Shown here: in pieces, positions 4,973-60,882 of the stretch | Layout: each line of letters starts with the position of its first letter | How positions within the stretch are numbered: the first letter of the stretch is position 1 | The notes under the pieces: generated by a model | Seen by the model: the letters and a program-made list of their open reading frames with translations, nothing else | Told to the model about the DNA's origin: nothing | Database searches by the model: none | Made by a program: the position numbers and the translations under genes | NCBI GenBank assembly: GCA_963765125.1 | Contig: CAVXUZ010000005.1 | Coordinates: 33,596 to 97,595 of the forward strand | DNA: 64,000 bases | Reading direction: 5' to 3' | DNA from: an uncultured candidate division WWE3 bacterium | GTDB lineage: Bacteria > Patescibacteriota > WWE3 > UBA101185 > UBA10185

Positions 4973-6316
4973 ATGGCACAAGATAATACGACAAATATTA
5001 AATCGCACGTACCGCCGCACGATCTTGAGGCAGAAAAATCTGTTCTCGGCGCTCTTTTAATCGATAAAGACGCAATTGTTAAGGTTGTTGAGTTTTTAAG
5101 ACCAAGCCACTTCTATAAATCAGCACATGAAAAAATCTATGACGCAATAATTAATCTTTACGAAAAACGAGAACCCGCAGATTTAATAACTGTTCCTGGA
5201 GAATTACGAAAGATGAAGGAGTTAGAAAATACCGGGGGAGTAACTTACCTTACGGAGCTAGTGAATAGTGTTCCGACTGCAGCAAATGTTGAGCATTACG
5301 CACAGATTATAAGAGACGAGGCAATTAAACGTCTCCTGCTCTCATCTGCAGCAAGAATTGGTGAAATGGTTTTTGAAGAACCTGATATTGATAGGTTATT
5401 AGACGAGTCTGAACAACTACTTTACTCTGTCTCTAAAGACAAGGTTCACCAAGATTTTATACCTATAAAAGAAACTTTAGAGGTTACTTTTGAGAGACTC
5501 GACGAGTTATCTAAGACTAAAGGTGCGTTGAGGGGTGTTCCCACCGGAATAAAATCTCTAGATAGAATGCTATCTGGTCTACAAGACGAGGACCTCATTA
5601 TTTTAGCCGCAAGACCCTCCGTAGGAAAATCATCTTTAGCAATAAACATAGCACAACACGCAGCCGTTAATCACGGCATAGGCGTAGCAATATTCTCATT
5701 AGAGATGGGAAGAGAGTCGATAGTAGACAGAATGATTTCATCACAGGGGGATATAGATAACTGGCGTATTACCACAGGAAACCTAGAAGCAGAGGATTTT
5801 GAAAAATACGGAATAGCAGCAGGTGAGCTCGCAGACGCGCCGATCTCAATTGACGATACTCCTGGACAAAGTGTTTTAGAAATGAGAACAAAGGCAAGAA
5901 GATTGATGTTAGACCAGAATATTGGGCTTATCGTAGTCGATTACTTGCAGTTGGTTAAAGGTAGACGACAAGAGAGCAGAGTACAGGAGGTTTCTGATAT
6001 TTCGCAATCACTAAAAAACCTAGCAAGAGAGCTTAAAGTCCCTGTGTTGGCACTCTCCCAGCTATCGCGTGCAGTTGAGCAACGTGGTGGTGATAAACGA
6101 CCGCAATTATCTGACTTACGCGATTCGGGTTCTATCGAACAAGATGCAGACATTGTGTTGTTTTTGTATAGACCAGACGATGAAGACCGTGAAAACGGCA
6201 AATTAATTATTGCAAAGCACAGAAACGGTCCCACTGGCGAAATAGACCTTTACTTCAGGCCCGATCGAACTAAGTTCTTTGAAGTCTCAAAAGCAGAAAA
6301 CCAGCAAGAATCCTAG
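4973..6316 (+). CDS. dnaB: Replicative DNA helicase DnaB
   Basis: N-terminal DnaB domain (HDLEAEKSVLGALLID). Walker A ARPSVGKSSLAINIA. Walker B LIVVDYLQL. RecA-like C-terminal domain. 447 aa. Confidence 0.9.
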   Translation: MAQDNTTNIKSHVPPHDLEAEKSVLGALLIDKDAIVKVVEFLRPSHFYKSAHEKIYDAIINLYEKREPADLITVPGELRKMKELENTGGVTYLTELVNSVPTAANVEHYAQIIRDEAIKRLLLSSAARIGEMVFEEPDIDRLLDESEQLLYSVSKDKVHQDFIPIKETLEVTFERLDELSKTKGALRGVPTGIKSLDRMLSGLQDEDLIILAARPSVGKSSLAINIAQHAAVNHGIGVAIFSLEMGRESIVDRMISSQGDIDNWRITTGNLEAEDFEKYGIAAGELADAPISIDDTPGQSVLEMRTKARRLMLDQNIGLIVVDYLQLVKGRRQESRVQEVSDISQSLKNLARELKVPVLALSQLSRAVEQRGGDKRPQLSDLRDSGSIEQDADIVLFLYRPDDEDRENGKLIIAKHRNGPTGEIDLYFRPDRTKFFEVSKAENQQES

Positions 6317-6376: not shown

Positions 6377-6463
6377 GCCGTGGTGGCGGAATGGTATACG
6401 CGGTGGTCTCAAAAACCACTGGGCCTTAAGCCTGTGTGGGTTCGACTCCCACTCACGGCACCA
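6377..6463 (+). tRNA. tRNA-Leu (anticodon CAA), class II with a long variable arm; CCA encoded
   Basis: Manual fold. Acceptor GCCGTGG/CCACGGC. D-arm GCGG-AATGGTATA-CGCG. Anticodon stem GTGGT/ACCAC with loop CTCAAAA. Variable arm GGGCCTTAAGCCTGTG. T-arm TGGGTTCGACTCCCA. Terminal ACCA. Confidence 0.85.
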
Positions 6464-56732: not shown

Positions 56733-57248
56733 TTACCAAATCTGCGCTGATCGACTATCCCAAGACCTAAATTTTCTACAAGTTTTTCGATTTGATAGCT
56801 CATTACCGTGAAAAAAGACCGTAATGCCGTCATTATTAAGTATTTCTTCAATATTTTGCATTAAAAATCTATGCGAGGTTGTGTTGTAAAAGGGGTCAAG
56901 AAAGATAATATCGTAGCTTTTTTCTGTGTTTGCAACATACTTTATGGCGTCGCGGTGAAAAAACTCCGCTTTATCTTGATAGCCAAGCTCTTCGATATTT
57001 CTTAAGATTGCATTTCCAGCCTCATGGCTAATGTCCACAAAATCACACCACTGCGCACCTCGGCTCAAAGCTTCAAAACCTAAATTACCGCTTCCTGCAA
57101 AAAGGTCAAGACAGACAGCATTAACCACCTTTTCACCCAACATAGAAAAAAGTGATCCTTTTGCCACTTCTTGCACCGCTCGGTATTCTTTTGTATTCGG
57201 GGTTTTTAAATGTTTGTTTTTTGAAATGCCAGTAGTAATTCTAACCAT
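56733..57248 (-). CDS. rsmD: 16S rRNA (guanine966-N2)-methyltransferase RsmD; the 3' end is possibly frameshifted
   Basis: LDLFAGSGNLGFEALSRGA (motif I). DIIFLDPFY (DPPY catalytic motif). An alternative +1 frame after an A5 run encodes a more RsmD-like C-terminus (see findings). Confidence 0.75.
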   Translation of the reverse strand: MVRITTGISKNKHLKTPNTKEYRAVQEVAKGSLFSMLGEKVVNAVCLDLFAGSGNLGFEALSRGAQWCDFVDISHEAGNAILRNIEELGYQDKAEFFHRDAIKYVANTEKSYDIIFLDPFYNTTSHRFLMQNIEEILNNDGITVFFHGNELSNRKTCRKFRSWDSRSAQIW

Positions 57249-57270
57249 AAGTATATTTTATACTTTTTAG

Positions 57271-57360
57271 CAAAAAAAAACGGCACGAGTTTATTTTATA
57301 AGCAGTAATCGTTATGAGTGGAAGGGGTCCACAACGATTACTTTGCTTTAAACTCGTGCC
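57271..57360 (-). terminator. Exceptionally long intrinsic terminator (about 30-bp interrupted stem plus T9) downstream of the minus-strand tRNA pair
   Basis: Minus strand: GGCACGAGTTTAAAGCAAAGTAATCGTTGTGGACCCCTTCCACTCATAACGATTACTGCTTATAAAATAAACTCGTGCCG followed by TTTTTTTTT. Confidence 0.6.
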
Positions 57361-57362
57361 AA

Positions 57363-57492
57363 GGTGCGGGAGGATGGATTCGAACCACCATTTCCGTGCG
57401 AAGTTGGTTCAACATGGGCATTAAGGCCTGATACGCCAGAACACACTCGGCATGTTAACTACCACGGCGCCTTACCACTAGGCCACTCTCGC
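57363..57492 (-). tRNA. Atypical tRNA-like gene (130 nt): canonical acceptor, D and T arms, with a roughly 57-nt insertion within the anticodon loop; isotype undetermined
   Basis: Acceptor GCGAGAG/CTCCCGC (one A:C mismatch). T8. D-arm GCCT-AGTGGTA-AGGC. Anticodon stem CCGTG...CACGG separated by 64 nt. Variable loop AAAT. T-arm GGTGG-TTCGAAT-CCATC. Discriminator A plus CC. Confidence 0.45.
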
Positions 57493-57504
57493 GATTAAAT
57501 CCAG

Positions 57505-57578
57505 AGCGGGTGGATGGATTCAAACCACCGACCTCTACGTTATCTACGTAGCGCTCATCTCAGCTGAGCTACACCCGC
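57505..57578 (-). tRNA. tRNA-Ile (anticodon GAU)
   Basis: Acceptor GCGGGTG/CACCCGC. D-arm GCTC-AGCTGAGAT-GAGC. Anticodon stem CTACG/CGTAG with loop TAGATAA. T-arm GGTGG-TTTGAAT-CCATC. CCA not encoded. Confidence 0.8.
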
Positions 57579-57645
57579 GTTTGGTAACAGCAATTCTCTC
57601 CTTCTCTCTTACGAGTTTGTAGTATTAAACAAAGTTAATGTTTTG

Positions 57646-59664
57646 TCAATTATTTCCCACGTATCGGCCAAGTCTGTCGTAAATCTTCTTTTTTAGCTTA
57701 GGGTAGTTATCTATTTGGGGAAAATATTTTGCAGAGTATTCTTTTGCCTTTTCTAAAGTTTCAAGATCAGACAAACGCGCGACTTTAAATCTTTTAAAAC
57801 CGTGTTGGAGTGTGCCGTAGATATCCCCACTTCCGCGAAGTTCGAGATCGATTTCTGCTAATTCTAAGCCGTTATTTACGGTTTCTAGATATTTTAATCT
57901 GTTGTAGGCGCTACGGTTATTACTACTCATAAAAATAAAACAATGTCCCTCTTGCCCCATACGCCCGATTCTGCCTCGTAGCTGATGTAAACTTGCGAGA
58001 CCGTATCTTTCTGCGCTTTCGATCACCATAACTGCTGCTTCTGGAATGTCTATGCCTACTTCAATAACCGGAGTGGACACTAGAATTTGTATTTCTCCTT
58101 TTTCAAATCTTTCAACAACGCCTCTTTTTTCTTCAGAAGTCATTTTGCCGTGGAGTAAACCAATCTTAAGATTTTTAAAAACTCCAGTTCTCAATTTTTC
58201 AAACTCAACTGTCGCAGCACGGACATTTTCAAAATCCTCATGCGACGACTCAAGAATAAAAGGACAAACGATAAATGTTTGTTCTCCTCTATCTCTAATC
58301 CATTCAAAGTGTTGATCACGTAATTTCTCAGGAACAACTTTTGTTTTAATTTTCTTTTCTTTTGATAGTATCGTTCTCAATTGTGATATTTCTAAATCAC
58401 CGTATATTGTTAATGCTAGTGTTCTAGGTATAGGAGTTGCCGTCATGGTAAGTAGGTGGGGTGTGAAACCGCCAAAGTCTAAACTCGCAAGTTTTGTTCT
58501 TTGTTCAACACCAAAACGATGCTGTTCATCGATAATCACCAAACCAACACCACTGTAATCCTCTTTAAAAAGAAGTGAGTGGGTTCCGATTAGAATATAA
58601 GGTTCTTTTGCAACTTCAGTTTTTAGCGAGCTCATTGCAATATGAACATTTGCGCCAAGCGGCTCTAGCACCTTTTTAAATGTGTCATAGTGCTGTTTTG
58701 AAAGAATCTCGGTTGGAGACATATAAAGAACATTTTTACCATTTAAGTAGGAAATATAAGCAGAAATAATTGCAACCATAGTTTTACCAGTGCCCACGTC
58801 ACCTTCAAGTAGTCTATTCATAGGGTGCGTCTTATTAAGATCACTTTTAATTTCTACAATTGCAGATTTTTGTGATTCAGATAATTCGAATGGAAGTGTT
58901 TTTATAAGTTCATTAACATTATTTTCATATTTCTCTGATGGTAACTCGCGGGAATGTAATTGTTTTTGCCAAATAGCTTTTCTATTCTCAACGTTTATAA
59001 GTTCTATTAATAATTCTTCAAGTGCAAATCTTTTTCTCGCCTGGTCAATCTCTCTTTGCGTAGTGGGAAAGTGAAAATAGTTTAATGCTTCGCCAAACTT
59101 AGGAAACTTTTCGTGAGAAATTATGTCTTCTGGTAAAAATTCATCTAGTGTCAATTTTGATAAAAGTATTTCATTTATTTTTCCCCTAATCCATTTTGAC
59201 GATACTCCACTCGTTTCAGGGTAAACTCCGATAAGTCTTCCAGTGTTTAGAGCTTGCTCGGCTAAAAGTTCGTATGTGGGTGCTACAAGATTTAATTTAC
59301 TTCCGAATTTGCCAACCTTACCACTAAAACTATATTTCTCACCCTGTTTTAAAGATTTTTTGAGGTAGTGGCTGTTAAACCAGATAACATTTACTTTTCC
59401 GGTTTGGTCAAGAACGTCGGTTTGAGTTAAACGTTTACCGTATTTTGTAAAAATATTTTTCACTTCGCCTAATACGCCTTGAACTGTTGCAACGTCACCT
59501 TCGTTCAAATCTGAGATGTTTTTAATAACTGAATAATCGTCGTATCTAAATGGAAAATGATAAAGTAGCTCTTCTACTGTTCTAATACCGAGCTTTTCTA
59601 AAAGCACACGATACTTGGGTCCTATTTTAGGAACTGCTGTAACCGGATTGGTTAATTCAAGCAT
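57646..59664 (-). CDS. recG: ATP-dependent DNA helicase RecG
   Basis: Wedge/OB N-terminus. Helicase motifs (…GDVGTGKT…; DEQHRFG; …LVSTPVIEVGIDIPEAAVMVIESAERYGLASLHQLRGRIGR). 672 aa. Confidence 0.9.
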   Translation of the reverse strand: MLELTNPVTAVPKIGPKYRVLLEKLGIRTVEELLYHFPFRYDDYSVIKNISDLNEGDVATVQGVLGEVKNIFTKYGKRLTQTDVLDQTGKVNVIWFNSHYLKKSLKQGEKYSFSGKVGKFGSKLNLVAPTYELLAEQALNTGRLIGVYPETSGVSSKWIRGKINEILLSKLTLDEFLPEDIISHEKFPKFGEALNYFHFPTTQREIDQARKRFALEELLIELINVENRKAIWQKQLHSRELPSEKYENNVNELIKTLPFELSESQKSAIVEIKSDLNKTHPMNRLLEGDVGTGKTMVAIISAYISYLNGKNVLYMSPTEILSKQHYDTFKKVLEPLGANVHIAMSSLKTEVAKEPYILIGTHSLLFKEDYSGVGLVIIDEQHRFGVEQRTKLASLDFGGFTPHLLTMTATPIPRTLALTIYGDLEISQLRTILSKEKKIKTKVVPEKLRDQHFEWIRDRGEQTFIVCPFILESSHEDFENVRAATVEFEKLRTGVFKNLKIGLLHGKMTSEEKRGVVERFEKGEIQILVSTPVIEVGIDIPEAAVMVIESAERYGLASLHQLRGRIGRMGQEGHCFIFMSSNNRSAYNRLKYLETVNNGLELAEIDLELRGSGDIYGTLQHGFKRFKVARLSDLETLEKAKEYSAKYFPQIDNYPKLKKKIYDRLGRYVGNN

Positions 59665-59685
59665 ATATTCATTCTACCAATTAAC

Positions 59686-59841
59686 CTAAAACATATATGG
59701 CAAAAGCGATGTTAGTAGTAATGCAATAGTTGCTATGAGAACTAAAACGCTGCCGATATTTTTTGGTCTAAAAGCTCTGCGTATTTTCTTTTTTATTGCT
59801 TTGGCTTTTGATATTTCTGTTTGTTGTTTATCAGACTGCAT
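59686..59841 (-). CDS. Possible 51-aa single-TM micro-protein upstream of recG
   Basis: Manual translation MQSDKQQTEISKAKAIKKKIRRAFRPKNIGSVLVLIATIALLLTSLLPYMF. Below the ORF-track cutoff. Speculative. Confidence 0.2.
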   Translation of the reverse strand: MQSDKQQTEISKAKAIKKKIRRAFRPKNIGSVLVLIATIALLLTSLLPYMF

Positions 59842-59931
59842 AAAAAGAGTATAGCAAAGTTGTAAGAGTTTGATTAGTAAGACAAAAAATAACCCTTAAA
59901 GATTTCTCTGTAAGGGTTATTGTGTTGCAGG

Positions 59932-60156
59932 TTAATCGTAGCATCGGGTGCAAACATTTTCGAGTTTGAACCGGCGAATGGCAACACTGGGATTATCACA
60001 GCAGACTGTTACCAAATCTTTGTCATGTGTGTTATCTGTCAATGTGCCGTCTTTTTTCACGAACCTTTTTCCTCCTGGTTTTATACCAACTACCACCAAA
60101 ACCCAGCGCTCACCATCTTTCTGAGTCTTGACCTCTAATTTCTTGCTGCTAGTCAT
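59932..60156 (-). CDS. Small Cys-containing hypothetical protein (74 aa)
   Basis: …VTVCCDNP…CTRCYD. No family recognised. Confidence 0.35.
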   Translation of the reverse strand: MTSSKKLEVKTQKDGERWVLVVVGIKPGGKRFVKKDGTLTDNTHDKDLVTVCCDNPSVAIRRFKLENVCTRCYD

Positions 60157-60284
60157 AAGCCATCTCCTTTGAATATTAGTTTTGTGGATTATATCACGTT
60201 ATATAGGTTATAAGCAATACTACAGGTCATTTACAATAGGACAACAAAAAGCCCCTTAGATTATATCTTTGGGGCTTATACTTG

Positions 60285-60506
60285 CTAAGATTGTGAACGG
60301 CCTTCCCATCTTCTTGGATTAAATCCGCGAATGTTTGGTATAAAAGGTATCGTTTCACGCTCTTTTTCTGTTTCGCGATGCTTTGCTGCAGCGGTTTCTA
60401 TTTGCGCATCAGTCATCGCCGGCATCTCACATCCACAACCTGGACAAATATTTGTAAGAGATGTGGTACTTTTCCACATCCTACAAGGTATACAGTAAAG
60501 CCACAT
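60285..60506 (-). CDS. Small zinc-ribbon protein (73 aa)
   Basis: CIPC-x15-CPGC four-Cys ribbon. No family recognised. Confidence 0.4.
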   Translation of the reverse strand: MWLYCIPCRMWKSTTSLTNICPGCGCEMPAMTDAQIETAAAKHRETEKERETIPFIPNIRGFNPRRWEGRSQS

Positions 60507-60521
60507 GGTTCTCCTTATATT

Positions 60522-60848
60522 CTATGCAAGTTTTACTCTTAGCCTGCTCCCCACCGTTGTACGCCCGGATTTTATTGTAACGAATTGCGCTTTGCAGCCG
60601 CATCTCAATGATTGACGACCTCTCTCGAGTATCGTCTCGATCTCTTCTTTTTGGGCTTGTAACATAGGTTTACCACAGCATTCGCAGTTTCTAGGTTTTT
60701 TGCTGTCAGATAAAATCTGAAGCCGGCAATCGCCGCACACGAACCAGAACTTACCAGTATCACTTGACATATCGAACTCCTTTTTTTGTGGATTTGGTTG
60801 TGAGCATTTTACCACCTTTTTACTGAATTGAAAAACCGCTGTAGTCAT
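60522..60848 (-). CDS. Small zinc-ribbon protein (probably about 82 aa, starting at the internal MSSDTGKFWF)
   Basis: FVCGDC-x15-CECCGKPM four-Cys ribbon. The N-terminal 26 aa of the track ORF are doubtful. Confidence 0.4.
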   Translation of the reverse strand: MTTAVFQFSKKVVKCSQPNPQKKEFDMSSDTGKFWFVCGDCRLQILSDSKKPRNCECCGKPMLQAQKEEIETILERGRQSLRCGCKAQFVTIKSGRTTVGSRLRVKLA

Positions 60849-60882
60849 AAAAAAAGGACTATATCTTTGATATAATCACTCT

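What the first reader, a model, noticed from the sequence alone, without database searches (positions are those of the whole stretch)
57363..57492. tRNA-like gene with a roughly 57-nt insertion in the anticodon loop, immediately downstream of tRNA-Ile(GAU)
All canonical tRNA elements are present on the minus strand: a 7-bp acceptor stem, T8, a D-arm with GG, the T-arm GGTGGTTCGAATCCATC, discriminator A and CC. However the two halves of the anticodon stem (CCGTG / CACGG) are separated by 64 nt instead of 7. The insert has imperfect terminal inverted repeats (GTTAACATG…CATGTTGAAC) and folds as an extension of the anticodon stem. No canonical 7-nt loop, and therefore no isotype, could be derived.

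Possibilities:
- a tRNA with a small intron;
- a MITE-like insertion that inactivates a tRNA (pseudo-tRNA);
- a structured tRNA-like regulatory RNA.
Bacterial group I tRNA introns are normally above 200 nt, so this one is unusual either way.
Basis: seen in the sequence. Interest (0 to 1): 0.6.

Follow-up and report, generated by a model that had tools for sequence, protein, structure and literature searches.

The report
tRNA-shaped gene lacking an anticodon loop
A candidate-phylum (WWE3) bacterium carries a tRNA-shaped gene whose anticodon loop is replaced by a 64-base irregular hairpin that cannot be cut out to give a normal tRNA, and it sits in a small, fast-changing operon of similarly aberrant tRNA-like genes that all 11 relatives readable there also carry at this spot.

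Summary
Rfam's tRNA model matches window 57365-57492 (-) end to end at 45.7 bits, with 64 nt where the 7-nt anticodon loop belongs.

It is not a recognisable intron:
- No single excision between positions 25 and 51 restores a 5-bp stem plus a 7-nt loop with U33 and R37.
- It is too short for group I and has no Rfam match.
- I found no bulge-helix-bulge by hand.
- The same excision solver does recover unique, perfect solutions in phage tRNA genes, so the negative result carries weight.

The gene is the second of two aberrant tRNA-like genes between recG and rsmD. A promoter-like site lies upstream, and a very stable long hairpin plus U9 lies downstream.

I fetched 12 WWE3 relatives. All carry a comparable TTGAC(A/T) promoter-like site after recG, and 11 can be read across the spacer. 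With the window these hold 22 tRNA-like genes, of which only 4 have a canonical anticodon loop. Five carry 33-66 nt inserts and three have a replaced lower half.

Compensatory changes in some relatives argue these RNAs are maintained. That evidence does not come from X itself.

Best reading: a non-decoding, tRNA-derived RNA processed like a tRNA, function unknown. A decaying pseudogene is the main rival. No homolog of this particular gene was found.

The parts
57621..57649 (-). Promoter-like site TTGACA-17 nt-AATACT, directly after the recG stop codon
   Evidence: 10 of 12 consensus matches. This is not significant on its own (2 sites found, 0.9 expected from shuffles). By my reading, all 12 relatives have a TTGAC(A/T) -35 followed about 17 nt later by a -10-like hexamer after recG; the placement in L005 is ambiguous.
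57504..57578 (-). First gene of the unit (W1): a tRNA-Ile(GAU)-like gene that is itself non-canonical
   Evidence: ARAGORN; Rfam 53 bits. The sequence shows the loop UAGAUAA (A33 in place of U33), the D-loop AGCUGAGAU without GG, the T-loop UUUGAAU (U56) and U73. Its T-arm plus 3' acceptor strand match those of X at 22 of 24 bases.
57365..57492 (-). X: the tRNA-shaped gene of the finding, G1 to A73. CC follows at 57363-57364.
   Evidence: Rfam tRNA 45.7 bits over the full model.
57469..57492 (-). X, 5' acceptor strand GCGAGAG, U8 G9 and D-arm GCCUAGUGGUAAGGC
   Evidence: cmscan alignment; sequence.
57463..57467 (-). X, 5' strand of the anticodon stem (CCGUG)
57399..57462 (-). X, the 64 nt that replace the 7-nt anticodon loop. 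48% G+C against roughly 36% in the flanking sequence.
   Evidence: The fold is not better than shuffles. There is no other copy, no Rfam family and no phage similarity.
57394..57398 (-). X, 3' strand of the anticodon stem (CACGG)
57365..57393 (-). X, variable region AAAU, T-arm GGUGGUUCGAAUCCAUC, 3' acceptor strand CUCCCGC and A73
57272..57360 (-). Long terminal hairpin (57282-57360) followed by G plus U9: the intrinsic terminator of the two-gene unit
   Evidence: -38.3 kcal/mol against -13.9 +/- 2.6 for shuffles (z = -9.3). The simple scanner missed it because the loop and stem exceed its limits.

Best explanation
X is a tRNA-derived gene that makes a tRNA-shaped RNA which does not decode.

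**Steps and their status**
1. *Inferred from sequence signals.* X is transcribed together with the upstream Ile-like gene W1 from the promoter-like site just after recG. Transcription stops at the long hairpin plus U9.
2. *Inferred from established tRNA biology.* The acceptor helix, D-arm (G18 G19), T-arm (UUCGAAU) and 4-nt variable region are intact. The RNA can therefore form the tRNA elbow and be cut by RNase P at the 5' end and trimmed at the 3' end like a tRNA.
3. *Shown.* The anticodon loop is replaced by 64 nt that probably extend the anticodon arm as an irregular helix. No excision restores a decoding loop.
4. *Inferred.* The product is a roughly 128-nt RNA with a tRNA top half and a long lower arm.

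**How the gene arose (inferred).** X and W1 look like tandem paralogs, and the lower half of X was later remodelled.

**What it does.** This is not known. My best guess is that the tRNA body serves as a processing and stability scaffold for a fast-evolving lower arm, in an operon of such RNAs kept at this locus across a WWE3 clade.
For: **X has a tRNA body but no decoding loop**
- Full-length tRNA model match with a 64-nt gap at the loop.
- Zero single-excision solutions for X, even when only 4 of 5 stem pairs are required.
- The solver works as a positive control. It finds a solution at positions 25-30 in 11 of 26 distinct phage tRNA genes, against 0.4% of shuffled controls.

**Signals of a transcription unit**
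- Promoter-like site.
- Terminator hairpin with z = -9.3.
- The cluster is 52-53% G+C against roughly 36% in flanking sequence.

**The locus holds aberrant tRNA-like genes in every relative readable there**
- By my count there are 22 tRNA-like genes in the window plus 11 relatives, and only 4 have a canonical 7-nt loop.
- Rfam tRNA hits with large gaps occur in L007 (38 for 5), L010 (75 for 9, and 5088-5205) and L180 (2889-3019).
- Other members have 8-, 9- and 14-nt loops.

**Signs of maintenance in relatives (not in X)**
- L004 and L178 differ at 1 of 75 positions in the tRNA-like gene, while the leader between promoter and gene differs by several substitutions and an indel.
- L003 against L004 shows a compensatory U-A to C-G change in the odd anticodon stem.
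- L007-3 and L180-1 share the flank TTTWATACCC and an 11-mer (AGCCAGGATCA) inside the insert. Their acceptor stems are entirely different, ACCCGCG/CGCGGGT against TGGGGTG/CACCCCG, and both are fully paired, the second with one G-U.

**X and W1 as paralogs**
- 22 of 24 identity over the T-arm plus 3' acceptor strand.
- The 6-67 pair is flipped from U-A to A-U.
Against: - No homolog of X itself was found. There is therefore no direct conservation or covariation evidence for X or for its insert.
- The insert's fold is no better than that of shuffled sequence.
- The acceptor stem has an A4.C69 mismatch.
- The inserts of the related genes share no common motif. Gene content at the locus turns over even between genomes whose RecG proteins are 79% identical. 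Both are also what decay would produce.
- There are no expression data.
- Only one other tRNA gene (Leu-CAA, normal) lies in the sequence available. I therefore cannot show that aberrant genes are confined to this locus.
Confidence: 0.5

Rival explanations
1. X is a dead tRNA pseudogene. It is a tandem duplicate of a neighbouring tRNA whose anticodon loop was destroyed by an insertion or rearrangement, and it is drifting in a fast-evolving spacer. It may be transcribed only because it lies between a promoter and a terminator.
For: - It cannot decode.
- The acceptor stem has an A.C mismatch.
- The insert's fold is not better than chance.
- No homolog was found.
- The inserts in relatives are heterogeneous, and gene content at the locus turns over rapidly.
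- Several relatives' genes also carry stem mismatches.
Against: - All 11 relatives that can be read across this spacer keep 1-5 tRNA-like genes there, and all 12 fetched keep the promoter-like site, although the genomes look compact. All elbow-forming nucleotides of X are intact.
- Aberrant members in relatives show compensatory change and near-identity where flanks differ.
- The G+C content of the insert (48%) is well above that of the flanking sequence.
Confidence: 0.27
2. X is a functional tRNA with a new kind of small intron, removed by an unknown bacterial endonuclease and ligase or by more than one cut. The mature loop may be non-canonical, for example an 8-nt loop GUAGUUAA, or UAGUUAA with A33 as in the neighbouring gene.
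For: - The tRNA body is perfect apart from one mismatch.
- The first 9 nt of the insert (GUAGUUAAC) match the anticodon-loop segment of the upstream gene (GUAGAUAAC) at 8 of 9 positions. A loop of that type may therefore once have been present.
- Small introns of 39-59 nt evidently exist in phage tRNA genes. Bacterial-world tRNA introns smaller than group I are therefore possible.
Against: - No excision yields a 5-bp stem plus a loop with U33 and R37.
- I found no bulge-helix-bulge when pairing the flanks by hand.
- No group I model matches, and 57 nt is too short.
- A model of the phage mini-intron motif has no match in X or in the relatives' inserts.
- ARAGORN's intron positions across the related genes are inconsistent.
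Confidence: 0.1
3. The insert is the footprint of a mobile element, either a MITE or the scar of an integrase that targets anticodon loops. X is therefore an inactivated attachment-site tRNA.
For: - The insert has imperfect terminal inverted repeats (GTTAACATG / CATGTTGAAC).
- Inserts recur at the anticodon arm in related genomes.
Against: - There is no second copy in 64 kb or in any fetched locus.
- I see no target-site duplication.
- No integrase or transposase lies nearby; the neighbours are recG, rsmD, nusB, an acyl-carrier-protein-like gene, rnc and rpsP.
- The inserts of different genomes are unrelated to one another.
Confidence: 0.08
4. Assembly or chimera artefact.
For: - The source is a metagenome-assembled contig.
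- The identical RecG protein is recorded on only one contig.
Against: - The junctions fall exactly at a perfectly paired stem.
- Comparable insert-bearing genes occur at the same locus in three assemblies from three different sources: Logan L007, JGI L010 and NCBI L180.
Confidence: 0.03

Closest known systems
Bacterial tRNA genes interrupted by group I introns (tRNA-Leu UAA, tRNA-fMet, tRNA-Ile2; PMC8450103)
   Same: Extra sequence lies in the anticodon loop of an otherwise normal bacterial tRNA gene, and tRNA finders miss the gene.
   Different: Those introns are mostly over 200 nt (PMC8450103) and have the group I catalytic core. Their removal restores a canonical loop. Here the insert is 57-64 nt, has no Rfam match and allows no restoring excision.
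Archaeal and eukaryotic protein-spliced tRNA introns (bulge-helix-bulge; PMC4090602)
   Same: The size range is similar (tens of nt), and the location is in or near the anticodon loop.
   Different: No bulge-helix-bulge can be drawn, and no canonical product results. The organism is bacterial: recG, rsmD and a WWE3-type RecG. Whether it has a splicing endonuclease could not be tested.
Mini-introns in phage and metagenome tRNA genes seen here (no paper found)
   Same: These are 39-59 nt inserts in tRNA genes of the bacterial and phage world, often several per tRNA array.
   Different: They sit at position 28/29 or 29/30 (one case at 25/26). They share a covarying hairpin followed by NC(A/C)GCAA, and their removal gives perfect tRNAs. 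X has none of these properties.
tRNA-like non-coding RNAs and engineered 'tRNA scaffolds' (tmRNA, YrlA Y-RNA-like RNAs, anticodon-arm fusions; recalled from my own knowledge)
   Same: A tRNA top half is used for folding, processing or stability, while the lower half carries something else.
   Different: - tmRNA needs G3.U70 and a tag reading frame.
- YrlA is permuted and linked to Rsr.
- Neither Rfam model matches X.
- Natural anticodon-arm 'display' RNAs of this kind are not described in the papers I could search.
Long tRNA gene arrays with atypical members (PMC8421152)
   Same: Clusters of tRNA genes that include non-canonical or cryptic members, and that vary between strains.
   Different: Going by the abstract only, those arrays hold up to 43 genes. 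Here the unit holds 1-5 genes, sits at a fixed housekeeping locus, and most members lack a usable anticodon loop.

Membership tests
Canonical decoding tRNA | Acceptor stem, D-arm with G18 G19, T-arm with UUCRANY, and a discriminator base | tested here: met
   Rfam RF00005 at 45.7 bits over model positions 1-71. There is one A4.C69 mismatch.
Canonical decoding tRNA | A 5-bp anticodon stem closed by a 7-nt loop with U33 and a purine at position 37 | tested here: not met
   64 nt lie between CCGUG and CACGG. No 7-nt loop can be derived.
Group I intron in a bacterial tRNA | An intron with the group I core (P3-P9), typically over 200 nt | tested here: not met
   No Rfam family other than tRNA matches 57250-57650 at E <= 1. 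The insert is 57-64 nt.
Group I intron in a bacterial tRNA | Excision restores a canonical anticodon loop | tested here: not met
   zero solutions.
Bulge-helix-bulge (protein-spliced) tRNA intron | Two 3-nt bulges separated by a 4-bp helix at the exon-intron junctions | tested here: not met
   I paired the flanks by hand (sequence). The junction is an asymmetric 3 x 8 nt internal loop followed by a 9-bp helix with one bulged G. No dedicated bulge-helix-bulge program was available.
Bulge-helix-bulge (protein-spliced) tRNA intron | A splicing endonuclease and an RNA ligase encoded in the genome | not testable with these tools
   Only 64 kb of the genome is available.
Phage-type tRNA mini-intron (defined here) | A covarying hairpin followed by NC(A/C)GCAA inside the insert | tested here: not met
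   Model R1, run with filters off, gives no match inside X. The best matches in the window are noise elsewhere (E >= 0.5). None falls in the relatives' inserts.
Phage-type tRNA mini-intron (defined here) | The insert lies in the 5' strand of the anticodon stem (28/29-29/30), and its removal gives a perfect arm | tested here: not met
MITE or mobile-element insertion | Multiple copies in the genome | tested here: inconclusive
   No second copy in the 64-kb window or in the loci fetched by then. The rest of the genome was not available.
MITE or mobile-element insertion | Terminal inverted repeats flanked by a target-site duplication | tested here: not met
   An imperfect 9-10-nt inverted repeat is present, but no duplication flanks it.
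tmRNA, YrlA or other curated tRNA-like RNAs | A match to the family's covariance model | tested here: not met
   only RF00005 matches. For tmRNA, G3.U70 is also absent (G3-C70).

The most novel reading that the evidence does not exclude
A clade of WWE3 (Patescibacteria) bacteria keeps, at a fixed promoter-to-terminator slot between recG and rsmD, an operon of 'display' RNAs. Each RNA has a tRNA body that guarantees processing and stability. Its anticodon arm is replaced by a fast-diversifying module: inserts of 33-66 nt, odd loops, or a wholly replaced lower half. These RNAs would serve a non-translational role, for example as decoys or ligands in conflict with phages or hosts. X would be one such RNA. 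This would be a natural counterpart of the engineered tRNA scaffold and a new class of bacterial non-coding RNA.
Probability: 0.2. Interest if true: 0.8.

Novelty: new variant of a known kind. Interest (0 to 1): 0.55.

Why it matters
**Annotation.** Standard tRNA finders either miss this gene or give it an invented anticodon. Genome annotation and tRNA-complement estimates for candidate-phyla bacteria will therefore be wrong at such loci.

**Biology.** If these RNAs are made and kept, compact candidate-phyla genomes devote a conserved, promoter-driven slot to tRNA-shaped RNAs that cannot decode. That raises a concrete question that sequencing small RNAs from enrichment cultures could answer. 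If they are merely decaying duplicates, the locus is a rare view of how tRNA genes die in reduced genomes.

**By-product.** The control searches turned up tRNA genes in phage and metagenome contigs with 39-59-nt inserts whose removal gives perfect tRNAs. I found no description of these in the papers I could search.

Tried and rejected
**Searches for relatives or homologs of X**
- *Homologs of X by DNA pattern.* The 5' half found nothing in viral contigs. The D-arm + gap + T-loop pattern in metagenomes returned 120 or more hits. By eye, none is an X homolog. They are archaeal intron-bearing tRNAs, tandem or duplicated T-arm artefacts, and unrelated insert-bearing tRNAs.
- *Similarity of the insert or the whole unit to GenBank phages.* Only chance 18-mers and generic tRNA matches came back.

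**Tests of the intron reading**
- *ARAGORN with intron models.* The solutions are forced and mutually inconsistent.
- *Single-excision solver.* It gave nothing for X.
- *Model of the phage mini-intron motif.* It has no match in the WWE3 inserts.
- *Rfam at permissive thresholds on X and on five relatives' loci.* Only tRNA matched.

**Structure and shared motifs**
- *Thermodynamic support for the extended arm.* There is none.
- *A common motif among the WWE3 inserts.* There is none. Only pairwise 8-11-mers are shared.

**Literature**
- Eight full-text searches were run. Seven looked for candidate-phyla tRNA introns or tRNA-like genes and for small phage tRNA introns, and found nothing relevant. 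The eighth ('WWE3' with 'tRNA genes') returned six titles, none about tRNA-like genes.

**Considered and dropped**
- tmRNA: no G3.U70 and no Rfam match.
- YrlA: different topology and no match.
- A class II reading with a long variable arm: it ignores the perfect CCGUG/CACGG stem.
- Anti-Shine-Dalgarno mimicry by pyrimidine runs in the terminal hairpins: these runs are simply the 3' strands of the stems.

Full report
**1. The observation**

On the minus strand, 57492 to 57365 reads GCGAGAG-UG-GCCUAGUGGUAAGGC-G-CCGUG-[64 nt]-CACGG-AAAU-GGUGGUUCGAAUCCAUC-CUCCCGC-A, followed by CC. Rfam's tRNA model matches it from model position 1 to 71 at 45.7 bits (gathering score 29). The only irregularities are 64 nt in place of the 7 loop positions and one non-standard acceptor pair, A4.C69.

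Default ARAGORN misses the gene. It reports only tRNA-Ile(GAU) 11 nt upstream (57504-57578) and a normal tRNA-Leu(CAA) at 6377-6463.

The feature is therefore real and far beyond chance. One part of the description is not supported statistically. The arm folds at -19.6 kcal/mol, against -18.3 +/- 3.0 for shuffles (z = -0.45).

**2. The organism and the neighbourhood**

Pfam gives the following minus-strand genes, in order of transcription: recG (57646-59664), rsmD family (56733-57248), nusB, an acyl-carrier-protein-like gene, rnc, rpsP and trmD.

The identical RecG is recorded on one 482-kb contig. The nearest other RecG proteins are only 65% identical, and the named ones are from candidate division WWE3 / Patescibacteria. 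The organism is therefore a candidate-phyla bacterium with no close sequenced relative.

**3. A transcription unit**

- A TTGACA-17-AATACT site lies directly after the recG stop codon.
- After X comes a 79-nt hairpin (-38.3 kcal/mol, z = -9.3) followed by U9.
- The two-gene cluster is 52-53% G+C, against about 36% in the surrounding sequence.
- rsmD then starts 6 nt after its own TAAAAT box.

**4. Is the insert an intron?**

I tested every way of deleting one contiguous segment between tRNA positions 25 and 51. The remainder had to form an anticodon stem plus a 7-nt loop with U33 and a purine at 37, with a 4- or 5-nt variable region. X gives no solution, whether 5 of 5 or only 4 of 5 stem pairs are required.

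The test has power. In phage contigs fetched with a D-arm + gap + T-loop pattern, 11 of 26 distinct genes give a solution at positions 25-30, against 0.4% of shuffled controls. The products are perfect tRNAs: Gly-UCC, Asn-GUU, Lys-UUU, Gln-UUG, Cys-GCA and others.

Other tests point the same way:
- The phage inserts share a hairpin in which all 7 pairs show compensatory change, followed by NC(A/C)GCAA. A covariance model of that motif finds nothing in X or in any related insert.
- No group I or other Rfam family matches.
- Pairing the flanks by hand gives a 3 x 8 nt internal loop and a 9-bp helix with a bulged G. This is not a bulge-helix-bulge.
- ARAGORN with introns allowed proposes Ile-AAU, with a 37-nt intron at 32/33 and a roughly 23-nt variable arm. 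For related genes it places introns at 33/34, 36/37, 37/38 and 38/39. It is fitting noise.

I conclude that X is not an intron-containing tRNA of any recognisable kind.

**5. The same locus in relatives**

I used all twelve contig look-ups on RecG relatives (62-65% identical to the window; 70-91% among some of themselves). All twelve loci keep recG, and every contig that continues downstream has rsmD next. All twelve also show a TTGAC(A/T) -35 box about 17 nt from a -10-like hexamer just after recG, although its placement in L005 is ambiguous. One contig (L179) ends at the start of its first tRNA-like gene, so 11 relatives can be read across the spacer.

Between promoter and terminator lie 1-5 tRNA-like genes. 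By my count there are 22 in the window plus these 11 relatives. Only four have a canonical loop: L005 (AGG), L006 (CAU), L009 (CUU) and L010 (UUC).

The other 18 are:
- Five relatives' genes with inserts of 33-66 nt. Four are Rfam tRNA hits: L007 5166-5270, L010 5088-5205, L010 5327-5465 and L180 2889-3019. The fifth is L007 5304-5420.
- X itself, with its 57-nt insert.
- Three genes with a replaced lower half: L006 5113-5206 and two in L007.
- Loops of 8, 9 and 14 nt (L008, L002).
- An arm with 24 nt where 22 are expected and a 5-nt loop (L003, L004, L178).
- Loops with A33 (the window's Ile-like gene), G33 (L009) or C37 (L007).

X is therefore one instance of a recurrent condition at this locus, not a lone accident. 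In the roughly 150 kb I hold from these genomes, a simple T-arm-plus-acceptor search finds tRNA-like genes only in this spacer, plus the window's normal tRNA-Leu. The sample of other tRNA genes is one. I therefore cannot claim that the oddity is specific to the locus.

**6. Maintained or decaying?**

*For maintenance*
- L004 and L178 (RecG 90% identical) differ at 1 of 75 positions in their odd tRNA-like gene. The leader between promoter and gene differs by several substitutions and an indel.
- L003 against L004 carries a U-A to C-G double change in the odd stem.
- L007-3 and L180-1 (RecG 74% identical) are homologous. They share the flank TTTWATACCC, the D-arm and T-arm pattern, and an 11-mer (AGCCAGGATCA) at the 3' end of the insert. 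Their acceptor stems are completely different, ACCCGCG/CGCGGGT against TGGGGTG/CACCCCG, and both are fully paired, the second with one G-U.
- In the window, X and the upstream gene share 22 of 24 bases over the T-arm and 3' acceptor strand. They differ by a flipped 6-67 pair.

*For decay*
- The inserts share no common motif.
- Gene content differs even between genomes whose RecG proteins are 79% identical.
- Several members have stem mismatches.
- X has no detectable homolog.

On balance I favour an expressed, tRNA-processed, non-decoding RNA (0.5) over a dead pseudogene (0.27). None of the evidence for maintenance comes from X itself.

**7. Mechanism**

*Shown*
- X has a tRNA body and no decoding loop.
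- A promoter-like site lies upstream and a strong terminator downstream.

*Inferred from established tRNA biology*
- The intact acceptor/T minihelix and D/T elbow make X a substrate for RNase P and for 3'-end maturation.
- The long lower arm is incompatible with decoding on the ribosome.

*Speculative*
- The tRNA body acts as a scaffold for a fast-evolving lower arm.

*A lead, not a result*
- The first 9 nt of the insert (GUAGUUAAC) match the neighbour's anticodon-loop segment (GUAGAUAAC) at 8 of 9 positions. X may have begun as a tandem copy with a similar A33 loop before its 3' side was remodelled.

**8. Comparison with what is known**

The closest known kinds are group I intron-bearing bacterial tRNAs, protein-spliced archaeal and eukaryotic tRNA introns, curated tRNA-like RNAs (tmRNA, YrlA) and atypical tRNA arrays. 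X fails a defining feature of each of the first three (see the membership table).

Seven full-text searches found no description of small tRNA inserts or tRNA-like genes in candidate-phyla bacteria, or of small phage tRNA introns. An eighth, on 'WWE3' with 'tRNA genes', returned six titles, none about tRNA-like genes.

I rate X as a new variant of a known kind (tRNA-derived, tRNA-like RNA), with moderate interest. The most novel reading that the evidence does not exclude is an operon of tRNA-scaffolded, diversifying RNAs, to which I give a probability of about 0.2.

Noticed in passing
window 57504-57578 (-): The 'tRNA-Ile(GAU)' next to X is itself non-canonical. Its anticodon loop is UAGAUAA (A33 instead of U33). 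Its D-loop AGCUGAGAU has no GG, its T-loop is UUUGAAU (U56, perhaps pairing with A19), and its discriminator is U. It still scores 53 bits.
   Followed up: partly
L002-L010, L178-L180 (recG-rsmD spacers), e.g. L007 5075-5633: The spacer between recG and rsmD is a hypervariable cluster of tRNA-like genes in every WWE3 relative that could be read there. It holds 1-5 genes, and most lack a canonical anticodon arm. L007 has five in tandem, four with large inserts or a replaced lower half.
   Followed up: yes
L011-L057 (IMG/VR) and e.g. L066, L082, L100, L112 (metagenomes): - Many phage-contig tRNA genes carry 39-59-nt inserts, often several per tRNA array.
- Removal at position 28/29 or 29/30 restores perfect tRNAs in 11 of 26 distinct genes, against 0.4% of shuffles.
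- The inserts share a covarying hairpin followed by NC(A/C)GCAA.
- A second sub-type reads ACNUUU-CGC..GCAUA..GUUCCUA.
- I found no paper describing this.
   Followed up: partly
L081, L086, L094, L102, L108, L110 (gut and other metagenomes); L079, L080, L119, L174: - Some tRNA-Gln(UUG) genes carry a 57-nt insert inside the anticodon loop. Its removal restores CUUUGAC, and the insert holds a T-arm-like hairpin GAGUUCAAGACUC.
- Some tRNA genes read GCUGA-[about 50 nt]-AUCUAAA-UCAGC, which would be an amber-suppressor (CUA) loop after excision.
   Followed up: no
L008 5267-5342: A tRNA-like gene with a 9-nt loop AUACUAGAU. ARAGORN calls it 'Pyl (CUA)', and it may be suppressor-like. Its neighbour at 5113-5186 has an 8-nt loop with a 4-base 'anticodon' GCUG.
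   Followed up: no
L007 about 5272-5292 and about 5545-5565; L010 about 5215-5235; L180 about 2845-2865: A small conserved spacer hairpin, AGAACCAAAUCAGUUCU, recurs between tRNA-like genes. L180 appears to keep the L010 spacers (GAAGAAC..AGUUCU and UUGCUUUCGCAGA) while lacking the two genes that lie between them in L010.
   Followed up: no
window 57272-57360 (-); L003 4407-4480; L004 5137-5215; L005 5167-5235; L010/L180 terminal 110 nt: Every cluster ends in an unusually long, internally structured hairpin before a U-run (window z = -9.3). In many relatives it begins CUGAGAG directly after the last tRNA-like gene. The L010 and L180 versions are clearly homologous. It may be more than a terminator.
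   Followed up: partly
L002 5226-5472: A 247-nt G+C-rich element closed by a 14-bp stem (GACCGGCGGUGCAU / AUGCACCGCCGGUC) follows an A+U-rich, degenerate tRNA-like gene. Its fold has z = -2.75, and it has no Rfam match.
   Followed up: partly
window 59665-60882: Relatives have a tRNA-synt_1b gene (TyrRS/TrpRS family, about 400 aa) between the penicillin-binding-protein gene and recG. The window has only three small ORFs without Pfam matches there.
   Followed up: no
window 57249-57270 (-) and the same place in the relatives: rsmD appears to be leaderless. A TAAAAT-type -10 box (often TGCTAAAAT) lies exactly 6 nt before the ATG in the window and in the relatives whose rsmD start was read.
   Followed up: no
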